A stretch of 58,887 bases of DNA, taken from assembly GCA_944390525.1 (NCBI GenBank), contig CALXQH010000027.1:1-58887 (forward strand). Reading direction: 5' to 3'. The notes under the pieces were generated by a model that saw only the letters and a list, made by a program, of their open reading frames with translations, was not told the DNA's origin and made no database searches. The position numbers and the translations under genes were made by a program. Below, one piece after another: positions 23,798-50,851 of the stretch. The DNA is from an uncultured Clostridia bacterium. Lineage in GTDB: Bacteria; Bacillota; Clostridia; TANB77; CAG-508. Numbering within the stretch: position 1 is the first letter of the stretch; each line of letters opens with the position of its first letter.

Positions 23798-24124
23798 AAT
23801 CCCTTTTGGGAATAAATTTTATTGGAGGTTATTCTATGGTTCAACTGCGGAAATTTATCAAGGTAAGTTTTGACAGCCCCCAGAATGCAGAAAAAGCATT
23901 GGAAATGGCTCAGAACAAATTTGCCACTCCCAACAAAATCTCTTCCAGAAATTTTGACCGTGTTGACAAAAACGCTGTCCTTTTTGAAAGGACAGGGAGT
24001 GCAGCAAAAGACTGTTGTGTAAAGCAGTTTTTGCTTTCTCTTCAGGGTGCTCTTCCTGAAAATTGCCACATTAGTTGAGAATATCACTTCAAAAAACAGG
24101 TACTCATATGAGTACCTGTTTTTT
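23798..24124 (+). ncRNA. unidentified roughly 330-nt transcript: candidate structured RNA, or an 80-aa ORF (23836-24078) with foreign codon usage
   Basis: Own promoter and a strong terminator (24091-24125). Locally higher GC. 5' and 3' ends can pair (UAUUCU/AGAAUA, UCAACU/AGUUGA), with internal helices CACUCCC/GGGAGUG, CUGUCC/GGACAG and AAAGCA/UGCUUU. No downstream gene on this strand. Confidence 0.45.
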
Positions 24125-24311
24125 AAATTTTATTTTTACTTTCTTTTTTAGTTATTATTTTTAATGCTTTTTGACGTTCTAACATAATTATATGTCCACA
24201 GCCTAGACACTTCATTTTAAAGTCAACACCAACTCTAGTTAATTCCCATAGTTTACTTCCACAAGGATGTTGTTTTTTTGTTCTTACAATATCGCCTACT
24301 TCATATTCCAT
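24123..24311 (-). CDS. DUF951 family small protein
   Basis: 62 aa, VGDIV..KKQHPCGS..W...R.G.D...KC..CG, the pattern typical of DUF951. Confidence 0.7.
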   Translation of the reverse strand: MEYEVGDIVRTKKQHPCGSKLWELTRVGVDFKMKCLGCGHIIMLERQKALKIITKKESKNKI

Positions 24312-24326
24312 AGGAATTTCCCCTTT

Positions 24327-25979
24327 CTATTTTTCTATTATATTTTTTATTCTTTTTTCTACGCTTTCTTTTCCAATAACTTGCATAATTTCATAAAGAT
24401 CTGGAGTTTGTTGTTTTCCTGTTAAGGCTACTCTTAGTACAGTACTAATGTCTCCAACATGACCTGGCCATTTTTCAGGCTCTTGTTTAAATATTTTTAC
24501 TTCTCTAGCATAGCCTAATTCTTCTGATAAATCTTTTAATTTATTAAACCATGTCTGTTTATCATCATTTATGTCAAAATATTTTTGTAAATATATTGAT
24601 AATATTTTTCTTATCTCTTCCTTGTCATTTATTTTTGCATATTCAAAATTATTATCTTCAGCAAAAAATTTTTCATCATACATATAATAAATTATATTTT
24701 TTATATCAGACCATTTTGCAATATCTTTTCTTGGTTTTGTTGTTCCTCTTTCTATTCCAAATACCTTTAATGAATAGTCTTTATCTTGTAGCATTTCTTC
24801 TAGTTCCTTGTCATAACGTTTTGCCCAGTTTAATGCATTTTCATAGACTTTTTCTTTAGAGTATGTAGATATTACATTTTTAGCTATATCTAACAATTTT
24901 ACCATATCAAAAATTGCTCCACTTACACTCATTTTATTTAATTCAAATTTAAATTCTGATATATCTTTGTCTGGATTTGCTCTTCTCCAAGTTTCAAAAC
25001 TAGAATTAGCAATATTTAATAAATATTGATATACTGCTTCGGCTGGTATTCCTTCTTCATGATAGTAACTTACTGCAGCTTCAGGATCTTTACGTTTACT
25101 AATTTTACGTTTTTTACCATTATCTTCCTTTAATATGGCTGAGGTATGAGCATATTTAGGCACTTGAAATCCTAATGCTTTGAATAATTCTAAATGTAAT
25201 GGTATAGAAGAAAGCCATTCATCTGCACGTATTACGTGTGTAACTCTCATTAAGTGATCATCTACAGCATGTGCAAAGTGATAAGTTGGTAGTCCGTCTG
25301 CTTTAATAATAACTATGTCTTGGTCATTTTCAGGAAATTCTACATTTCCTTTAATAATATCATGATGTCTTATTTTTCTTTCTTCATTTCCCATAGATTT
25401 AAAACGTATAATATAAGGCTCTCCAGATTTAATTTTTTCTGTAGCTTCTTCTACTGTTAAATTGCGGTATTTAGCCCATACGCCATAATATCCAGGTCTT
25501 ATTTTAGCAGCTTCTTGTTTTTTGCGCATTTCTTCTAATTCTTCTGTAGTTGCAAAACAAGGATATGCCTTTCCTTGTTCTATTAAATATTTTGCAAAAG
25601 CTTGATATATATCTTTTCTAGCGCTCTGTTTATATGGACCATATAAGCCTTTTTCTTCTGTTTCATTTATCATACCTTCATCAAATACAATACCAAAATC
25701 TTTAACAGCTTCTACTATTTGTATTACTCCGTTTTCAATTAATCTTTTTTGGTCAGTATCTTCTATTCTTAATATACTAACACCTTTTGTTTGCCTAGCT
25801 ATTGTTGTACAAATAATACTTTGATATAGCCCTCCTATATGAACATATCCTGTAGGGCTTGGTGCAAAACGTACTACCATTGCTCCTTCTGGCAAATTTC
25901 TTTCTGGATATTTTTCTTCATAATAAGAAATTGGTTTTGCATCTGGAAATATTAAATTTGCTAAATCTTTATAATCCAT
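24327..25979 (-). CDS. gltX: glutamate--tRNA ligase (long form)
   Basis: Class I HIGH-like PSPTGYVHIGG and KMSKS-like KISKRK. Confidence 0.9.
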   Translation of the reverse strand: MDYKDLANLIFPDAKPISYYEEKYPERNLPEGAMVVRFAPSPTGYVHIGGLYQSIICTTIARQTKGVSILRIEDTDQKRLIENGVIQIVEAVKDFGIVFDEGMINETEEKGLYGPYKQSARKDIYQAFAKYLIEQGKAYPCFATTEELEEMRKKQEAAKIRPGYYGVWAKYRNLTVEEATEKIKSGEPYIIRFKSMGNEERKIRHHDIIKGNVEFPENDQDIVIIKADGLPTYHFAHAVDDHLMRVTHVIRADEWLSSIPLHLELFKALGFQVPKYAHTSAILKEDNGKKRKISKRKDPEAAVSYYHEEGIPAEAVYQYLLNIANSSFETWRRANPDKDISEFKFELNKMSVSGAIFDMVKLLDIAKNVISTYSKEKVYENALNWAKRYDKELEEMLQDKDYSLKVFGIERGTTKPRKDIAKWSDIKNIIYYMYDEKFFAEDNNFEYAKINDKEEIRKILSIYLQKYFDINDDKQTWFNKLKDLSEELGYAREVKIFKQEPEKWPGHVGDISTVLRVALTGKQQTPDLYEIMQVIGKESVEKRIKNIIEK

Positions 25980-26025
25980 ATTTATATATTCCTTTCAATT
26001 ATCTTTAATAATAATATTTATTTTA

Positions 26026-27894
26026 CTAAACTTCAGTAATTATTGGTAATATCATAGGGTTTCTTTTTGTTTTTTCAAATATATAATCTCTTAAACTATC
26101 TTTTATATTAGACTTTATAGTTGCCCAGTCACGTATATGATTTTCCTCACATTTTCTAACTTCTTCACGTATTACTTTTTTTACGTTTTCCATTAAATTT
26201 TCTGATTCTCTAACATATACAAAACCTCTAGATACAACATCTGGTTCTGATATTATTTCACCAGTACTTGAATCCATTGTCATAACAATAACTATTAATC
26301 CATCTTGTGATAAATGTTGTCTATCACGAAGTACTATATTTCCAACATCTCCTACTCCTAGTCCATCTACTAATACTTTTCCATTAGGAACTGTTGTTGT
26401 AAGCATAGCTTCATTCTCATTTAATTCTAACACTTTACCATTTGTCATCATAAATATATTTTTTTCTTCTATTCCTAGTTTTTTTGCAGTTTCTGCATGT
26501 GCTACAAGTTGTCTATATTCACCATGCACAGGTATAAAATATTTTGGTTTTGCTAATGTTATTATTAATTTTTGTTCTTCTTGACAAGCATGTCCTGATA
26601 CGTGAATATCTTCTAATGAACTATATATTACTTCTGCTCCTATTTTCATAAGGTCATCTATTACTTTTGATACATATTTTTCATTTCCTGGTATTGGTGT
26701 TGCAGATATAATTACCATATCGTTTGGAGTAATAGTTACTTTTTTGTGGTCTCCGTTAGCCATTCTAGTTAAAGCTGACATTGCTTCTCCTTGACTTCCT
26801 GTAGTAATTATTACTAATTGGTCATCACGATAATTTTTTATATTATCTATATCAATAAATATGTTTTCTGCATCTTGAATATAGCCTAATTCTCTTGCAG
26901 CTTCTATCATATTTATCATACTTCTACCACATATTGCAATTTTTCTACCATATTTAACAGAAGAATTTACTATTTGTTGTACTCGATGCACATTTGATGC
27001 AAATGTTGCTACTACTATTCTTTTTGTATTATTTAAAAATAGTCTGTCAAATACTTCTCCTACAGAGCTTTCTGACATAGTAAAGCCCTTTCTTTCACTA
27101 TTAGTACTATCTGAAAGTAAAGCTAAAATGCCATTATTACCTAATTCTGCAATTCTTCCTAAATTTATTACTTTATCATCTATTGGTGTATAGTCAATTT
27201 TAAAATCTCCTGTGTGAAGTATTGTTCCTACAGGTGTGTTTATTGCTAGCATTACAGCATCTGGTATGCTGTGATTACTATTAATAAATTCTATTTGCAT
27301 ATTTTCAAAATTAATTGTTTGCCCTTGCTCTACAGTAATTAGTTTTGTTGTATTTAATAAATTGTGTTCTTCTAACTTATTTTTTATTAAAGAAATAGTT
27401 AATTTAGTAGCATATATAGGAATATTGATTTGTTTTAAAATATATGGAATAGCTCCTATATGATCTTCATGTCCATGTGTAATAATTAGTGCCTTTACTT
27501 TTTCTTGGTTTTTTAGTAAATAGCTAATATCTGGAATTACTAAATCAACACCTAACATATCATCTCCAGGAAATTCTAGTCCGCAGTCTACTAATATTAT
27601 TTCATTTTCATATTCAAAAACTGTAATGTTTTTTCCTATTTCTTGTAGTCCTCCTAAAGGTATTATTTTTAAATTAGATTTTTTAAAATTAAATCTAGTA
27701 ATATTGTTTTTGGTTTCATTTTTTGCATTTCTTGTTTTTCTTACTGTAGTGGTTTGTTTTTTTTCTATTTGGCTTGTCCTTGTATTTCTTTTTGTAGGAT
27801 AACTACTTTTTTCATCTGTATTTTTATTTTGTTCTTTTAGCTTTGCTCTATTGTCTTTTATCTTTTCATCATATTGTTTTGGTTTATTTACCAT
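26026..27894 (-). CDS. rnj: ribonuclease J with a roughly 75-aa basic N-terminal extension
   Basis: The conserved core starts at KIIPLGGLQEIGKN. Has the HGHEDHIG metallo-beta-lactamase motif and beta-CASP region. Confidence 0.9.
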   Translation of the reverse strand: MVNKPKQYDEKIKDNRAKLKEQNKNTDEKSSYPTKRNTRTSQIEKKQTTTVRKTRNAKNETKNNITRFNFKKSNLKIIPLGGLQEIGKNITVFEYENEIILVDCGLEFPGDDMLGVDLVIPDISYLLKNQEKVKALIITHGHEDHIGAIPYILKQINIPIYATKLTISLIKNKLEEHNLLNTTKLITVEQGQTINFENMQIEFINSNHSIPDAVMLAINTPVGTILHTGDFKIDYTPIDDKVINLGRIAELGNNGILALLSDSTNSERKGFTMSESSVGEVFDRLFLNNTKRIVVATFASNVHRVQQIVNSSVKYGRKIAICGRSMINMIEAARELGYIQDAENIFIDIDNIKNYRDDQLVIITTGSQGEAMSALTRMANGDHKKVTITPNDMVIISATPIPGNEKYVSKVIDDLMKIGAEVIYSSLEDIHVSGHACQEEQKLIITLAKPKYFIPVHGEYRQLVAHAETAKKLGIEEKNIFMMTNGKVLELNENEAMLTTTVPNGKVLVDGLGVGDVGNIVLRDRQHLSQDGLIVIVMTMDSSTGEIISEPDVVSRGFVYVRESENLMENVKKVIREEVRKCEENHIRDWATIKSNIKDSLRDYIFEKTKRNPMILPIITEV

Positions 27895-28293: not shown

Positions 28294-28329
28294 AAAAAAA
28301 CAAATTACCTAAATTGCTTTAGGTAATTT
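28294..28329 (-). terminator. rho-independent terminator of the pilin-like gene
   Basis: aaattacctaaa / tttaggtaattt 12-bp stem plus a U-run on the minus strand. Confidence 0.75.
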
Positions 28330-28391: not shown

Positions 28392-29340
28392 CTACATTTC
28401 TGGTATTATACTATATTGGAAGTTAGTTTTTGGAATTAAAACTATCGGACGAAGCCCGCCATCTGGTGAACACGTAGTCGCTGCTGTCCAAATTGCCGTC
28501 GTCCCCGTCCACGTTGACCACACAGCCGCCGAAGCTGCTGCTAGCAGAGGCTAAACACCAATAACTTCTTGTTATATATTCCGTTATTATATGTTTCTAA
28601 TAACCAATTACCAACAATATTATGGTTATATCCAGTTGAAGTACAAGTTATCTCTATTGTGTTTGTTGTTTCTTCACTTTTGTTATATGAATTCATAAAT
28701 AATTCTAGTGTTGGGCTTCCTATTGCATAAGCTGCATTCCCTTCACTATCTTTATATCCTGCCCATACTGATTGATCCATTAAATATGCTACTGCTTTGC
28801 AGCGTTTGTTGTACTTTCAGATCCACTTAGTTGGGTATACCACTGTTGATTTAAAAATCTTAAGTTTGAATCTATTTCATCTGATCCATTTGTGTATTTG
28901 CCTGATATTTCGTTAGATAAAGTGCAACTAGCCACTGGATTACTTCCATCTGATGTTTTTTCTGATATTAAATATACATAAGTTTCGTCATAATAAAATA
29001 TTCTCCATGTTAAGTCTGTATAATCTTTTGCTACATAGTCCACTTTTTTACCTATGTCTTCTGCAAAAACTTCTGTGCTGTTTGGTTCTTTATTTACTAA
29101 ATCTTCTAATTGCTGATTTAATTCTTCCATTGCTGCTATATCATTTTGCACTGACTGATTTGTTTTTTCTGCTGCTAATTTTGCTCTCGTTATTAACCCA
29201 TTTTCTCCTACTAATGCTGTTATACTTACTGCTGCTAATATTAACAATACTACTATTGTTACTACCAGTGCTATTAAGGTTATTCCTTTTTCTCTCTTTT
29301 TTCTTTTTATTAATGGTTTTTTCTCTTTTAGCTTTTCCAT
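28392..29340 (-). pseudogene. prepilin-type N-terminal domain protein with a C-terminal YWxLAS...GLRP domain. Needs three frame changes as written.
   Basis: N-terminus KGITLIALVVTIVVLLILAAV (class III signal-like). Colinear pieces lie in three frames: ...TTNAAK / AVAYLMDQSVWAGY...NNGIYNK / SYWCLASASSSFGGCVVNVDGDDGNLDSSDYVFTRW / GLRPIVLIPKTNFQYSIIPEM*. Confidence 0.7.
28446..28552 (-). other. GC-rich NNC-codon tract (DGR variable-region-like) inside the pilin-like gene
   Basis: In the coding frame, 19 of 26 consecutive codons (28465-28542) end in C (AGC AGC AGC TTC GGC GGC ... GAC GAC GGC ... GAC AGC AGC GAC TAC ... TTC ACC). Elsewhere in this genome third positions are overwhelmingly A/T. 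Confidence 0.5.
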
Positions 29341-29629: not shown

Positions 29630-30124
29630 TTACAGATCTTCCATTCTCATTCTTTCTACAACAGCAGTTATAAATTCACTATTTGTAGGCTTACCTTTTT
29701 TTGAAAAGCTATTAGTTCCAAAGAACTCGTATAACTGTTCAAAATTTGTAGTATTAAATATATTTTCTATGGCGTGCCTAATAGTTCTTTCTACCTGCGT
29801 ACTTGTTACGTTATTCTTTCTGGCGACCTCAGGATAAAGAAATCCTACAAAGGGCATTGTCTGAGAATCAGCTTGATAGAATATACATATTGCATCTTTG
29901 CAATATTTGAATCCTTTTAAATTGGTCTGCATACCAAGATTTAAGAGGATATTGCTTACTCTTATTTCAAGATTCTTTCCTTTAGTTGCTTCAGAAGATA
30001 TTTGGGTTGTTTTTAACTTTTCTTTTTCTAAGGTAGTAATTTCTTCTATAAGGTTGATTAAGTCTCTTATACCATATCCTTTCTCATCTAAAGTTTGCAG
30101 AATTTGAATAGTCCGCTCTGTCAT
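29630..30124 (-). CDS. stand-alone Spo0A C-terminal (DNA-binding) domain protein without a receiver domain
   Basis: 164 aa with ...LKGFKYCKDAI..., LYPEVARKNNVTSTQVERTIRHAIE and KGKPTNSEFI, matching the Spo0A effector domain. The N-terminal roughly 55 aa is not a REC domain. Confidence 0.75.
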   Translation of the reverse strand: MTERTIQILQTLDEKGYGIRDLINLIEEITTLEKEKLKTTQISSEATKGKNLEIRVSNILLNLGMQTNLKGFKYCKDAICIFYQADSQTMPFVGFLYPEVARKNNVTSTQVERTIRHAIENIFNTTNFEQLYEFFGTNSFSKKGKPTNSEFITAVVERMRMEDL

Positions 30125-50482: not shown

Positions 50483-50851
50483 TTATGCTAATTCTACTGT
50501 AGCGCCAGCTTCTTCAAATTTAGCTTTTAATGCTTCTGCTTCTTCTTTAGCTACATTTTCTTTAACAGTTTTTGGAGCTCCATCAACTAAATCTTTAGCT
50601 TCTTTTAATCCTAAGCCTGTAGCATCTCTAACTACTTTAATTACTTGTATTTTGTTTGCTCCTGCTTCTTTTAATACTACATTAAATGCAGTTTTTTCTT
50701 CTGCTGCTCCTGCTGTTGCTCCACCAGCTACTGGTGCTGCTACTGCTGCTGCAGATACTCCATATTTTTCTTCAATTCCTTTTACTAATTCTGATAATTC
50801 TACTACTGTTAAAGTATCAATAGTTTCTAATAATTCATCAATTTTTGCCAT
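50483..50851 (-). CDS. rplL: 50S ribosomal protein L7/L12
   Basis: Ala-rich hinge and the conserved C-terminal domain ...[16 protein letters not shown]... Confidence 0.97.

What the first reader, a model, noticed from the sequence alone, without database searches (positions are those of the whole stretch)
28446..28552. DGR variable-region-like tract: about 100 nt of GC-rich NNC codons at the C-terminus of a pilin-like surface protein
In a genome where third positions are almost always A/T, the coding frame here reads AGC AGC AGC TTC GGC GGC TGT GTG GTC AAC GTG GAC GGG GAC GAC GGC AAT TTG GAC AGC AGC GAC TAC GTG TTC ACC. Nineteen of the 26 codons end in C, which is the pattern expected when AAC-rich template codons are diversified by adenine-specific mutagenesis.

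The tract sits between the conserved flanks YWxLAS and GLRP, the place where C-terminal variable regions of diversity-generating retroelement targets lie. No template repeat, Avd or reverse transcriptase is present in this window, so a cognate DGR would have to act in trans.

Alternatives are gene conversion from a GC-rich donor or a foreign mosaic segment.
Basis: partly seen in the sequence, partly recalled or inferred. Interest (0 to 1): 0.75.

Follow-up and report, generated by a model that had tools for sequence, protein, structure and literature searches.

The report
Stranded DGR variable region in pilin-like pseudogene
The GC-rich stretch is a real variable region written by a diversity-generating retroelement at the end of a pilin-like adhesin gene, but here the gene is broken by frameshifts, none of the retroelement parts looked for (template repeat, accessory proteins, reverse transcriptase) is nearby, and the stretch looks frozen, so it is an ordinary relic of a known system.

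Summary
The tract is real. It has 62.6% GC against 26.4% for the window, and 19 of 26 codons end in C against a 5% background (P about 1e-19).

It lies on the minus strand in a type IV pilin-like gene (29340-28392). The C-terminal domain of that gene's family is the DUF6273/C-type-lectin-like fold already known from DGR targets.

Homologous loci in related uncultured gut Clostridia carry target, MutS-like protein, bAvd and template repeat, and some also carry a reverse transcriptase. Their AAC-rich template repeats align codon for codon with the window tract. Differences concentrate at template adenines (23/43 against 10/74 elsewhere). The 16-nt 3' element GGGCTTCGTCCGATAG is identical. A DGR origin is therefore well supported.

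- The gene is a pseudogene with three frameshifts, one inside the tract, so YWxLAS and GLRP are in different frames.
- A second assembly, from a named sample, has the identical tract, and a third matches its first 47 nt.
- No template repeat, bAvd, MutS-like protein, reverse transcriptase or spacer RNA is in the 58.9 kb, and none was found in the collections I could scan.

Most likely this is a recently written, now static, stranded variable region. It is a new member of a known kind, of low to moderate interest.

The parts
28392..29340 (-). Pilin-like DGR target gene, now a pseudogene read in three frames. Pieces: 29340-28789, 28780-28541, then SYWCLAS...VFT, then GGLRPIV...PEM*.
   Evidence: ORF list and three-frame translation. 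6447 homologues were found, many of them hitting PF19789/DUF6273. Intact relative P0001 is 76% identical over 100% of the stitched protein. DNA alignments to L003 and L004 place the indels.
29224..29301 (-). Prepilin-type N-terminal methylation and hydrophobic helix segment (KGITLIALVVTIVVLLILAAV...)
   Evidence: Pfam N_methyl, E = 3.5e-4, 20.5 bits against a cut-off of 21.2, residues 14-39. Profile hits to the N-termini of pilins in the PDB. The motif is invariant in alignment A1.
28788..28803 (-). Frameshift 1: GCAAAG (A3) where L003 and L004 have GCAAAAG (A4). This leads to the stop at 28789-28791.
   Evidence: Pairwise alignments. L242, from a named sample, is identical to the window across this site.
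28558..28573 (-). Frameshift 2: net 8-nt deletion just upstream of the variable region (AACAAGAAGTTATTGG against AATAATGGAACAGGTTCATATTGG in P0012). This leads to TAG at 28541.
   Evidence: Comparison with L232, L001 and L244. The same lesion is present in L004 and L242.
28442..28560 (-). Variable region: the full stretch homologous to DGR template repeats (TGGTGTTTAGCC...CCGATAG).
   Evidence: Alignment to the L232 template repeat: 23 of 43 template A positions differ against 10 of 74 non-A positions, Fisher P = 1e-5. Replacements are A to G 15, T 7, C 1. Ungapped 74-nt core: 5 non-A mismatches to the L232 repeat, 9 to the L001 repeat.
28465..28542 (-). Block of 26 codons, 19 of them NNC (AGC AGC AGC TTC GGC GGC ... 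TTC ACC)
   Evidence: Corresponds to the AAC-rich codons of the template repeats.
28452..28467 (-). Frameshift 3: one extra nucleotide inside the variable region. There are 13 nt between GTG and GGG where the template repeats have 12.
   Evidence: Alignments to the L232 and L001 template repeats. Identical in L242.
28442..28457 (-). IMH-like GC-rich 3' boundary element GGGCTTCGTCCGATAG
   Evidence: Identical 16-mer at the 3' end of both the template repeat and the variable region of L232, and in L003. Template and variable region diverge right after it...ATAGC against ...ATAGT.
28392..28441 (-). Conserved C-terminal tail after the variable region (..VLIPKTNFQYSIIPEM*)
   Evidence: Conserved in homologues (alignment A1). 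87% nucleotide identity to L003 over 60 nt.
28302..28329 (-). Inverted repeat AAATTACCTAAAGCAATTTAGGTAATTT downstream of the gene; possible terminator, not scanned.
   Evidence: Read directly from the sequence. Not tested with the terminator scan.

Best explanation
The tract is the variable region of a diversity-generating retroelement (DGR) target gene.

The gene. It encoded a type IV pilin-like protein: an N-terminal methylation motif and hydrophobic helix, then a DUF6273/C-type-lectin-like ligand-binding domain. The last 30 or so residues of that domain, between WWLASP and GLRPIV, are the diversified surface.

How the tract was written (inferred from the known DGR mechanism).
- An AAC-rich template repeat is transcribed.
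- A DGR reverse transcriptase, working with bAvd and a MutS-like accessory protein, copies it and misreads adenines. In this clade the replacement is mostly G.
- The cDNA replaces the target sequence up to the boundary element GGGCTTCGTCCGATAG.
- This turns AAC codons into NNC codons and raises GC to about 55-63% in a 26% GC genome.

The state in this window.
- The gene is dead. It has three frameshifts, one of them inside the variable region.
- The 58.9 kb holds no template repeat, bAvd, MutS-like protein, reverse transcriptase or spacer RNA.
- The tract is the same in a second assembly and, as far as it can be read, in a third.

I therefore read it as a recently written but now static, stranded variable region. 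It still has undecayed third-position C. It may have been moved or kept by recombination among the multi-copy pilin-like genes.

Shown: homology to template repeats, the adenine bias, the domain family, the frameshifts, and identity across assemblies. Inferred: the retrohoming event itself, its recency, and present inactivity.
For: Composition and periodicity are far beyond chance.

Homologous loci carry DGR parts:
- L001 and L232 have target, MutS_I, bAvd and template repeat.
- L170 and L137 also have an RVT_1 reverse transcriptase.

The template repeats match the window tract:
- Against the L232 repeat, 23/43 A positions are changed against 10/74 non-A positions, P = 1e-5.
- The 3' 16-mer is identical.
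- The L232 repeat against its own variable region shows the same pattern (27/46 against 5/79) and the same G bias.

The system is active in a sister species. P0006, P0007, P0018, P0019 and P0049 are 98-99.6% identical upstream but only 29-45% identical in the variable region.

The domain fits:
- Homologues hit the C-terminal end of PF19789.
- An AlphaFold model of the C-terminal domain (pLDDT 93.8) best matches phage DUF6273 proteins (E = 1.4e-4, probability 1.0) and DUF1566 proteins.
- DUF6273 is a published C-lectin-like DGR target domain with the variable region at its C-terminus (PMC10743442, PMC11792537).

Relic status:
- Three frameshifts.
- L242 is identical over 28852-25604.
- L004 shares frameshift 2 and the first 47 nt of the tract.
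- No DGR parts in the window.

Recency: 19/26 codons end in C, against 17/26 in the L232 template (hand count from the sequence). The allele in L003 has 2/29 (hand count from the sequence).
Against: - The cognate template repeat was not found, so the adenine-only rule is tested only against repeats of other species. Those leave 5 to 10 non-A mismatches, one extra codon and one extra nucleotide.
- The rest of this genome could not be searched, so a DGR acting in trans is not excluded.
- Retrohoming does not need an intact reading frame, so pseudogene status alone does not prove inactivity.
- L242 differs from the window by only 2 of 3270 nt. It is the same strain, I do not know which sample the window came from, and identity of the tract over such a short divergence is weak evidence of stasis.
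- L004 becomes unrelated after 47 nt of the tract and is probably chimeric, so it covers less than half of the tract.
Confidence: 0.62

Rival explanations
1. Active remote target. A DGR elsewhere in the same chromosome (template repeat, bAvd, MutS-like protein and reverse transcriptase more than about 28 kb away) still rewrites this tract in trans. The frameshifts are either tolerated or very recent.
For: - Non-adjacent and remote targets are documented. 45 of 372 DGRs have them, some more than 100 kb away (PMC5758913).
- The IMH-like element is intact and identical to that of an active relative.
- Third-position C has not decayed.
- L232 shows template-repeat cassettes with no reverse transcriptase in the 16.5 kb fetched, so action in trans seems normal in this clade.
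- A second pilin-like gene with a GC-rich variable-region-like end (L243) comes from the same sample, at similar coverage, as L242.
Against: - The tract is identical in L242, and its first 47 nt are identical in L004, which differs elsewhere by a Big_2 insertion and about 1-4% divergence.
- Three frameshifts mean no selectable product.
- No cognate template repeat was found in the collections scanned.
- P0012, another target with no DGR parts within 6 kb, is also identical in four samples.
Confidence: 0.22
2. Imported by homologous recombination. The tract was written by a DGR in a different, DGR-linked paralogue or strain and was then moved into this locus by gene conversion among the multi-copy pilin-like genes. 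The frameshifts mark the decay of a redundant copy. This is compatible with the best explanation rather than exclusive of it.
For: - Identity to L003 is mosaic: 100% for the first 410 nt or so, then falling, with a different 3' third and a synteny break straight after the gene.
- There is a 100% identical block with L004 from about 130 nt upstream of the tract to 47 nt into it, next to 1-4% divergence upstream.
- Contigs break at the conserved pilin N-terminus, which points to several copies per genome.
- Sister genomes carry targets at different sites.
Against: No donor copy was found. The pattern could also arise from allelic recombination at a single locus.
Confidence: 0.3
3. The tract is a foreign GC-rich insert, an assembly chimera, or a chance compositional island unrelated to DGRs.
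For: The GC jump is abrupt. One related contig (L004) does switch inside the tract into an unrelated dockerin-encoding sequence.
Against: - The tract is homologous codon by codon to template repeats and variable regions of AT-rich relatives, with conserved flanks on both sides.
- The identical sequence is in a second assembly from a named sample.
- The codon periodicity has P about 1e-19.
Confidence: 0.02

Closest known systems
DGRs with a MutS-like accessory gene (Architecture D of Wu et al. 2018, NAR 46:11; the Legionella DGR is one example)
   Same: Relatives of the window gene sit in cassettes of target, small MutS_I-domain protein, bAvd, template repeat and sometimes a reverse transcriptase. 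Substitutions are adenine-specific.
   Different: The window holds only the target's variable region. It has no accessory genes, template repeat or reverse transcriptase. The L232 locus has no reverse transcriptase in the 16.5 kb fetched, and none is in the 12.5 kb of L001, which ends at a contig end.
DUF6273 C-lectin-like DGR target proteins of gut phages (tentaclins, PMC10743442; Faecalibacterium prophages, PMC11792537)
   Same: The domain family is the same and the variable region maps to the C-terminal end of DUF6273.
   Different: Here the domain is fused to a type IV pilin-like N-terminus in a chromosomal, non-phage setting. IMG/VR gave no relative of the target and no match to the spacer motif, the template/spacer junction or the tract pattern.
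Bordetella phage BPP-1 DGR (Mtd variable region, template repeat, IMH, bAvd, bRT)
   Same: C-terminal variable region, AAC-rich template, adenine mutagenesis, a GC-rich 3' boundary element shared by template and variable region, and a bAvd homologue in relatives.
   Different: The target fold family and accessory set differ. IMH function was not tested here. No hairpin downstream of the variable region was looked for.
Treponema denticola TvpA DGR and other DGRs with remote targets (PMC5758913)
   Same: A target gene lying away from the DGR cassette.
   Different: Those remote targets match a template repeat in the same genome with A-only differences. Here no template repeat from the same genome is known, and the gene is a pseudogene.
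Bacteroides DGRs that diversify type V pilus adhesins (bioRxiv 10.1101/2024.11.15.621889)
   Same: Gut bacteria use DGRs to vary a pilus-associated adhesive domain. This comes from that paper's abstract.
   Different: A different pilus type (type V against a type IV-like prepilin N-terminus), a different phylum and a different target domain. Whether the Clostridia proteins assemble into a pilus is unknown.

Membership tests
DGR variable region (target of mutagenic retrohoming) | A template repeat in the same genome that differs from the variable region almost only at template adenines | tested here: inconclusive
   No template repeat in the window (adenine-tolerant scan). None in IMG/VR or the JGI metagenomes. 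Template repeats of other species do show the adenine bias: 23/43 against 10/74, P = 1e-5 for L232 and P = 0.003 for L001. The rest of the genome was not available.
DGR variable region (target of mutagenic retrohoming) | A DGR-type reverse transcriptase encoded nearby or in the genome | tested here: not met
   tblastn with the L170 reverse transcriptase (RVT_1) finds nothing in the 58.9-kb window. Presence elsewhere in the genome is not testable here.
DGR variable region (target of mutagenic retrohoming) | An accessory gene (Avd, MutS-like or HRDC) next to the template repeat | tested here: not met
   No bAvd or MutS-like homologue in the window. Both are present beside homologous targets in L001, L232, L170 and L137.
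DGR variable region (target of mutagenic retrohoming) | A GC-rich 3' boundary (IMH-like) shared with the template repeat, after which the two diverge | tested here: met
   GGGCTTCGTCCGATAG at 28442-28457 is identical to the 3' end of the L232 template repeat and variable region. The template continues ...GCTTTTCT and the variable regions continue ...GTTTTAAT or ...GTTATAAT. Function was not tested.
DGR variable region (target of mutagenic retrohoming) | AAC-derived NNC codon pattern | tested here: met
   19 of 26 codons end in C against a 5% background, P = 9e-20.
DGR variable region (target of mutagenic retrohoming) | Hypervariability confined to the variable region among otherwise near-identical sequences | tested here: not met
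   At this locus L242 is identical and L004 is identical over the first 47 nt. The feature is met in a sister species, 98-99.6% against 29-45% identity. Read-level data were not available.
DUF6273 / C-type-lectin-like DGR target domain | The variable region lies at the C-terminal end of a DUF6273 or C-lectin-like fold | tested here: met
   Precomputed PF19789 hits on many homologues. In my own scan P0024 residues 299-350 match PF19789 positions 117-171 of 172 at 20.8 bits, below the 23.5-bit cut-off. Foldseek with the AlphaFold model gives DUF6273 phage proteins at E = 1.4e-4 and DUF1566 proteins. PDB matches to the Lcl C-terminal domain and to C-type lectins are only weak. The stitched window protein itself gave no PF19789 hit.
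Type IV pilin / pseudopilin-like proteins | A prepilin-type N-terminal cleavage and methylation motif followed by a hydrophobic helix | tested here: inconclusive
   N_methyl scores 20.5 bits, just under the 21.2-bit cut-off. The profile matches pilin N-termini in the PDB at E = 0.02-1. G-ITLIALV is invariant in the family. Processing and assembly were not tested.

The most novel reading that the evidence does not exclude
This lineage of uncultured low-GC gut Clostridia may run a dispersed DGR economy. Many pilin-like DUF6273 genes scattered round the chromosome would carry variable regions. Template-repeat cassettes (MutS-like protein, bAvd, template repeat, and a conserved spacer RNA of about 190 nt) would often lack their own reverse transcriptase and be served in trans. 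The +1 frameshift inside this window's variable region would then have been written by the retroelement itself, as a cDNA indel on AAC repeats. That would make this a target gene killed by its own diversifier and then left to decay.
Probability: 0.15. Interest if true: 0.55.

Novelty: new member of a known kind. Interest (0 to 1): 0.3.

Why it matters
This confirms that a tool-free reading of codon periodicity can spot a DGR variable region in an AT-rich genome.

It also points to a large, mostly unannotated family of chromosomal pilin-like DGR targets in uncultured gut Clostridia: 6447 homologues of the target and more than 1000 bAvd relatives.

Stranded variable regions such as this one could serve as compositional clocks. 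A freshly written region keeps its third-position C, while an old one (L003) has drifted to the genome's AT bias. That could be used to date the loss of DGR activity.

None of this changes what is known about how DGRs work.

Tried and rejected
- **Template repeat in the window.** An adenine-tolerant ungapped scan of both strands for a repeat matching 28440-28565 found only the tract itself. General repeat finding gave nothing relevant.
- **First collection scan for the template repeat.** The 87-nt version then matched only what look like low-complexity stretches, many at contig ends, which I did not read. Fixing the third-position C solved that, and the pattern then found nothing in IMG/VR or the JGI metagenomes.
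- **The 16-mer GGGCTYCGYCCGATAG in IMG/VR.** It gave 24 hits, none in a template-repeat-like context.
- **The template/spacer junction and the conserved spacer motif.** Neither was found in IMG/VR, nor the junction in the JGI metagenomes, nor the spacer motif in the window.
- **Relatives of the target in IMG/VR.** None. Phage-collection blastn also found nothing.
- **Regex search for reverse-transcriptase motifs.** It missed the real enzymes, which carry YQDD, so I replaced it with ORF listing, Pfam and tblastn.
- **Other copies of this locus through neighbouring genes.** Contigs carrying the Spo0A_C neighbour all end at or just inside the pilin gene. The RNase J neighbour and the 79-aa ORF both gave only L242.
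- **bAvd homologue search.** It returned more than 1000 proteins. None was intermediate between the L232/L001 group (90-100% identical) and a 66-78% cloud, so I could not pick a candidate for the window's species.
- **Foldseek with the full-length model.** It was uninformative. The C-terminal domain alone was needed.
- **L004 as an independent full copy.** It turns into a dockerin-coding sequence on the other strand after 47 nt of the tract, so I treat it as probably chimeric.
- **The idea that frameshift 2 carries sequence from upstream of the template repeat.** I rejected it. The window sequence is explained by small deletions of the native sequence seen in L232 and P0012.

Full report
**Observation.**
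- The tract lies on the minus strand.
- Third-position C is 5.0% in 13,115 codons of the window's long ORFs, so the binomial probability is about 9e-20.
- The tract is 62.6% GC in a 26.4% GC window and is the top 100-nt GC peak. The only comparable peak is a tRNA-Leu gene.
- The composition and periodicity are therefore real and not chance.

The gene is not intact.
- The prepilin-like ORF (29340-28789) stops after ...TTNAAKQ.
- The protein continues in another frame (28780-28541) and stops at ...NNGIYNKKLLVFSLC*.
- The NNC block is in a third reading, SYWCLAS...DYVFT.
- The conserved end GGLRPIVLIPKTNFQYSIIPEM* is shifted by one more nucleotide.
- Alignment with close relatives places the three lesions:
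  - an A3 run where relatives have A4 (28788-28803);
  - a net 8-nt deletion (28558-28573);
  - one extra nucleotide inside the tract (28452-28467).
- YWxLAS and GLRP are thus in different frames.

**What the gene is.**
- A stitched translation finds 6447 homologues, many with PF19789 (DUF6273) and all with a G-ITLIALV prepilin-like N-terminus.
- The stretch between WWLASP and GLRPIV is the only hypervariable part of the family.
- In one sister species, five proteins are 98-99.6% identical over the 236 upstream residues but only 29-45% identical in that stretch.
- An AlphaFold model of the C-terminal 227 residues of homologue P0024 (pLDDT 93.8) matches phage DUF6273 proteins (Foldseek E = 1.4e-4, probability 1.0) and DUF1566 proteins. 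It matches the Legionella Lcl C-terminal domain and C-type lectins only weakly.
- DUF6273 is already described as a C-lectin-like DGR target domain whose C-terminal end carries the variable region (PMC10743442, PMC11792537).

**The link to DGRs.**
- Contigs encoding homologues P0019 (L001, L002) and P0024 (L232) have, straight after the target, a 147-aa MutS_I-domain protein, a bAvd protein and then an AAC-rich template repeat.
- GTDB MAG loci L170 and L137 add an RVT_1 reverse transcriptase.
- This is the MutS-like ('MSL') architecture catalogued by Wu et al. 2018 (PMC5758913).
- The L232 template repeat reads TGGTTAGCTTCTCCT AAC AGC AAC AAC AGT AAC AAT GTG TTC AAT GTG AAC GGA AAC AAC GGC AAT TTG AAC AAC AAC AAC GTG AAC AAC AGC AAT GGGCTTCGTCCGATAG. 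It aligns codon for codon with the window tract.
- Of 43 template A positions, 23 differ. Of 74 non-A positions, 10 differ (Fisher P = 1e-5).
- Replacements are G 15, T 7 and C 1. This is the same G bias as the L232 repeat shows against its own variable region (G 14, T 9, C 4).
- The 16-nt 3' element is identical, and template and variable region diverge straight after it, as expected for an IMH-type boundary.
- The GC-richness therefore needs no GC-rich donor. It comes from G/C at fixed template positions plus A-to-G mutagenesis. Template repeats are 40-45% GC, active variable regions about 54%, and the window tract (the 126 nt at 28440-28565 used in that comparison) 57%.

**Is it being diversified now?**
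- The window has no template repeat, no MutS-like, bAvd or reverse-transcriptase homologue, and no copy of the conserved spacer that follows the template repeat in four loci.
- Strict adenine-tolerant patterns and patterns for the template/spacer junction found nothing in IMG/VR or the JGI metagenomes.
- Among all fetched loci the best template is that of L232, with 5 non-A mismatches in a 74-nt core. It belongs to another species, so the cognate template remains unknown.
- A contig from sample ERZ24773491 (L242) is identical to the window from 28852 to 25604, including the tract and all three frameshifts. I do not know which sample the window came from.
- A contig from another study (L004) lacks frameshift 1 and has a Big_2 insertion. 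It shares frameshift 2 and the first 47 nt of the tract exactly, and then turns into an unrelated dockerin sequence, so it is probably chimeric.
- This argues for a static tract, but weakly. L242 is the same strain, with only 2 differences in 3270 nt.

**Context and history.**
- L003, which is 96% identical to the window over 2.2 kb, carries an intact allele.
- Its corresponding segment is AT-rich (I count 2 of 29 codons ending in C in the sequence shown) yet still ends in GGGCTTCGTCCGATAG.
- It shows faded template-like codons, for example GTA TTC TTT GTA AAC against GTG TTC AAT GTG AAC.
- Synteny breaks straight after the gene.
- The window tract, with undecayed third-position C, is therefore young compared with that allele.
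- Identity to L003 and L004 is mosaic, and contigs break at the conserved pilin N-terminus. This points to several recombining copies per genome.
- The same sample as L242 has a second pilin-like gene with another GC-rich variable-region-like end (L243).
- An intact sister-species target, P0012, also has a 56% GC variable region, no DGR parts within 6 kb, and identical sequence in four samples.
- Stranded, apparently static variable regions thus seem common in this lineage.
- Because frameshift 3 lies inside the rewritten stretch, it must date from the last retrohoming event or later. L004 shows that frameshift 2 came before frameshift 1. Both points are inference.

**Verdict.**
- The idea that the tract is being diversified in trans is untested and, on present evidence, less likely than a relic.
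- The system is a known kind: a MutS-like/bAvd DGR with a DUF6273 target. Remote targets are also known. This instance is a new, degraded member.
- My confidence in the DGR origin is about 0.9. My confidence that the tract is now static is about 0.6-0.65.
- Interest is low to moderate.

Noticed in passing
L232:9187-10390 and L001:11230-12420: These cassettes have target, MutS_I protein, bAvd and template repeat, but no reverse-transcriptase homologue in the DNA fetched (16.5 kb for L232; 12.5 kb for L001, which ends at a contig end). The targets of the L001 species nonetheless vary between samples, so the enzyme is presumably supplied from elsewhere.
   Followed up: partly
Alignment A4: L001:12130-12420, L232:10090-10390, L170:12250-12480, L137:3465-3720: A non-coding stretch of about 190 nt straight after the template repeat is conserved across four loci and ends in a terminator-like hairpin (AAGGTAGTAAT...ATTACTACCTTTTT). 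It is probably the spacer part of the DGR RNA. It is absent from the window, and its conserved core motif has no match in IMG/VR.
   Followed up: partly
L244:879-1985 (also L245, L246, L247): Intact homologue P0012 has a 56% GC variable region but no template repeat, bAvd or reverse transcriptase within 6 kb. The protein sequence is identical in contigs from four samples. L246 has an HTH gene and a MutS_I gene 2 kb downstream.
   Followed up: partly
window 24120-27838 compared with L245: In the sister species the target lies between the glutamyl/glutaminyl-tRNA synthetase gene and the RNase J gene, convergent with RNase J. In the window those two genes are adjacent and the target lies upstream of RNase J. 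Target genes therefore occupy different sites in related genomes.
   Followed up: no
L243:2307-3308: A second pilin-like gene (P0085) comes from the same sample, at similar coverage, as L242. Its N-terminal DNA is 88% identical to the window gene. Its C-terminus is of a different, longer variable-region type (about 50% GC, ending GFRPVF) that resembles the L170 and L137 template repeats. The contig ends 63 nt after the stop codon.
   Followed up: partly
L003:2205-2335: The allele in a strain 96% identical to the window has an AT-rich, drifted version of the variable region but keeps GGGCTTCGTCCGATAG. Downstream synteny differs: a xanthine/uracil permease gene instead of RNase J.
   Followed up: partly
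P0006 against P0007 (sister species): The variable stretch differs in length (28 against 29 residues) between proteins that are otherwise 99.6% identical. The L001 variable region also has one codon more than its template repeat. Whole-codon indels therefore arise in these variable regions.
   Followed up: no
L004:1097-1489: This contig switches, 47 nt into the tract, to a minus-strand ORF with a dockerin type I domain. It is probably an assembly chimera.
   Followed up: partly
window 29630-30124 (minus strand): The gene just upstream of the target encodes a 164-aa protein with only the Spo0A C-terminal domain and no receiver domain. A full-length Spo0A-like regulator lies near a homologous target in L229.
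   Followed up: no
window about 50675-50775 and 14750-14850 (plus strand): Runs with C at every third base on the plus strand rival the tract's count. They lie opposite minus-strand ORFs, so they probably reflect GNN-rich codons of those genes rather than coding third positions.
   Followed up: no
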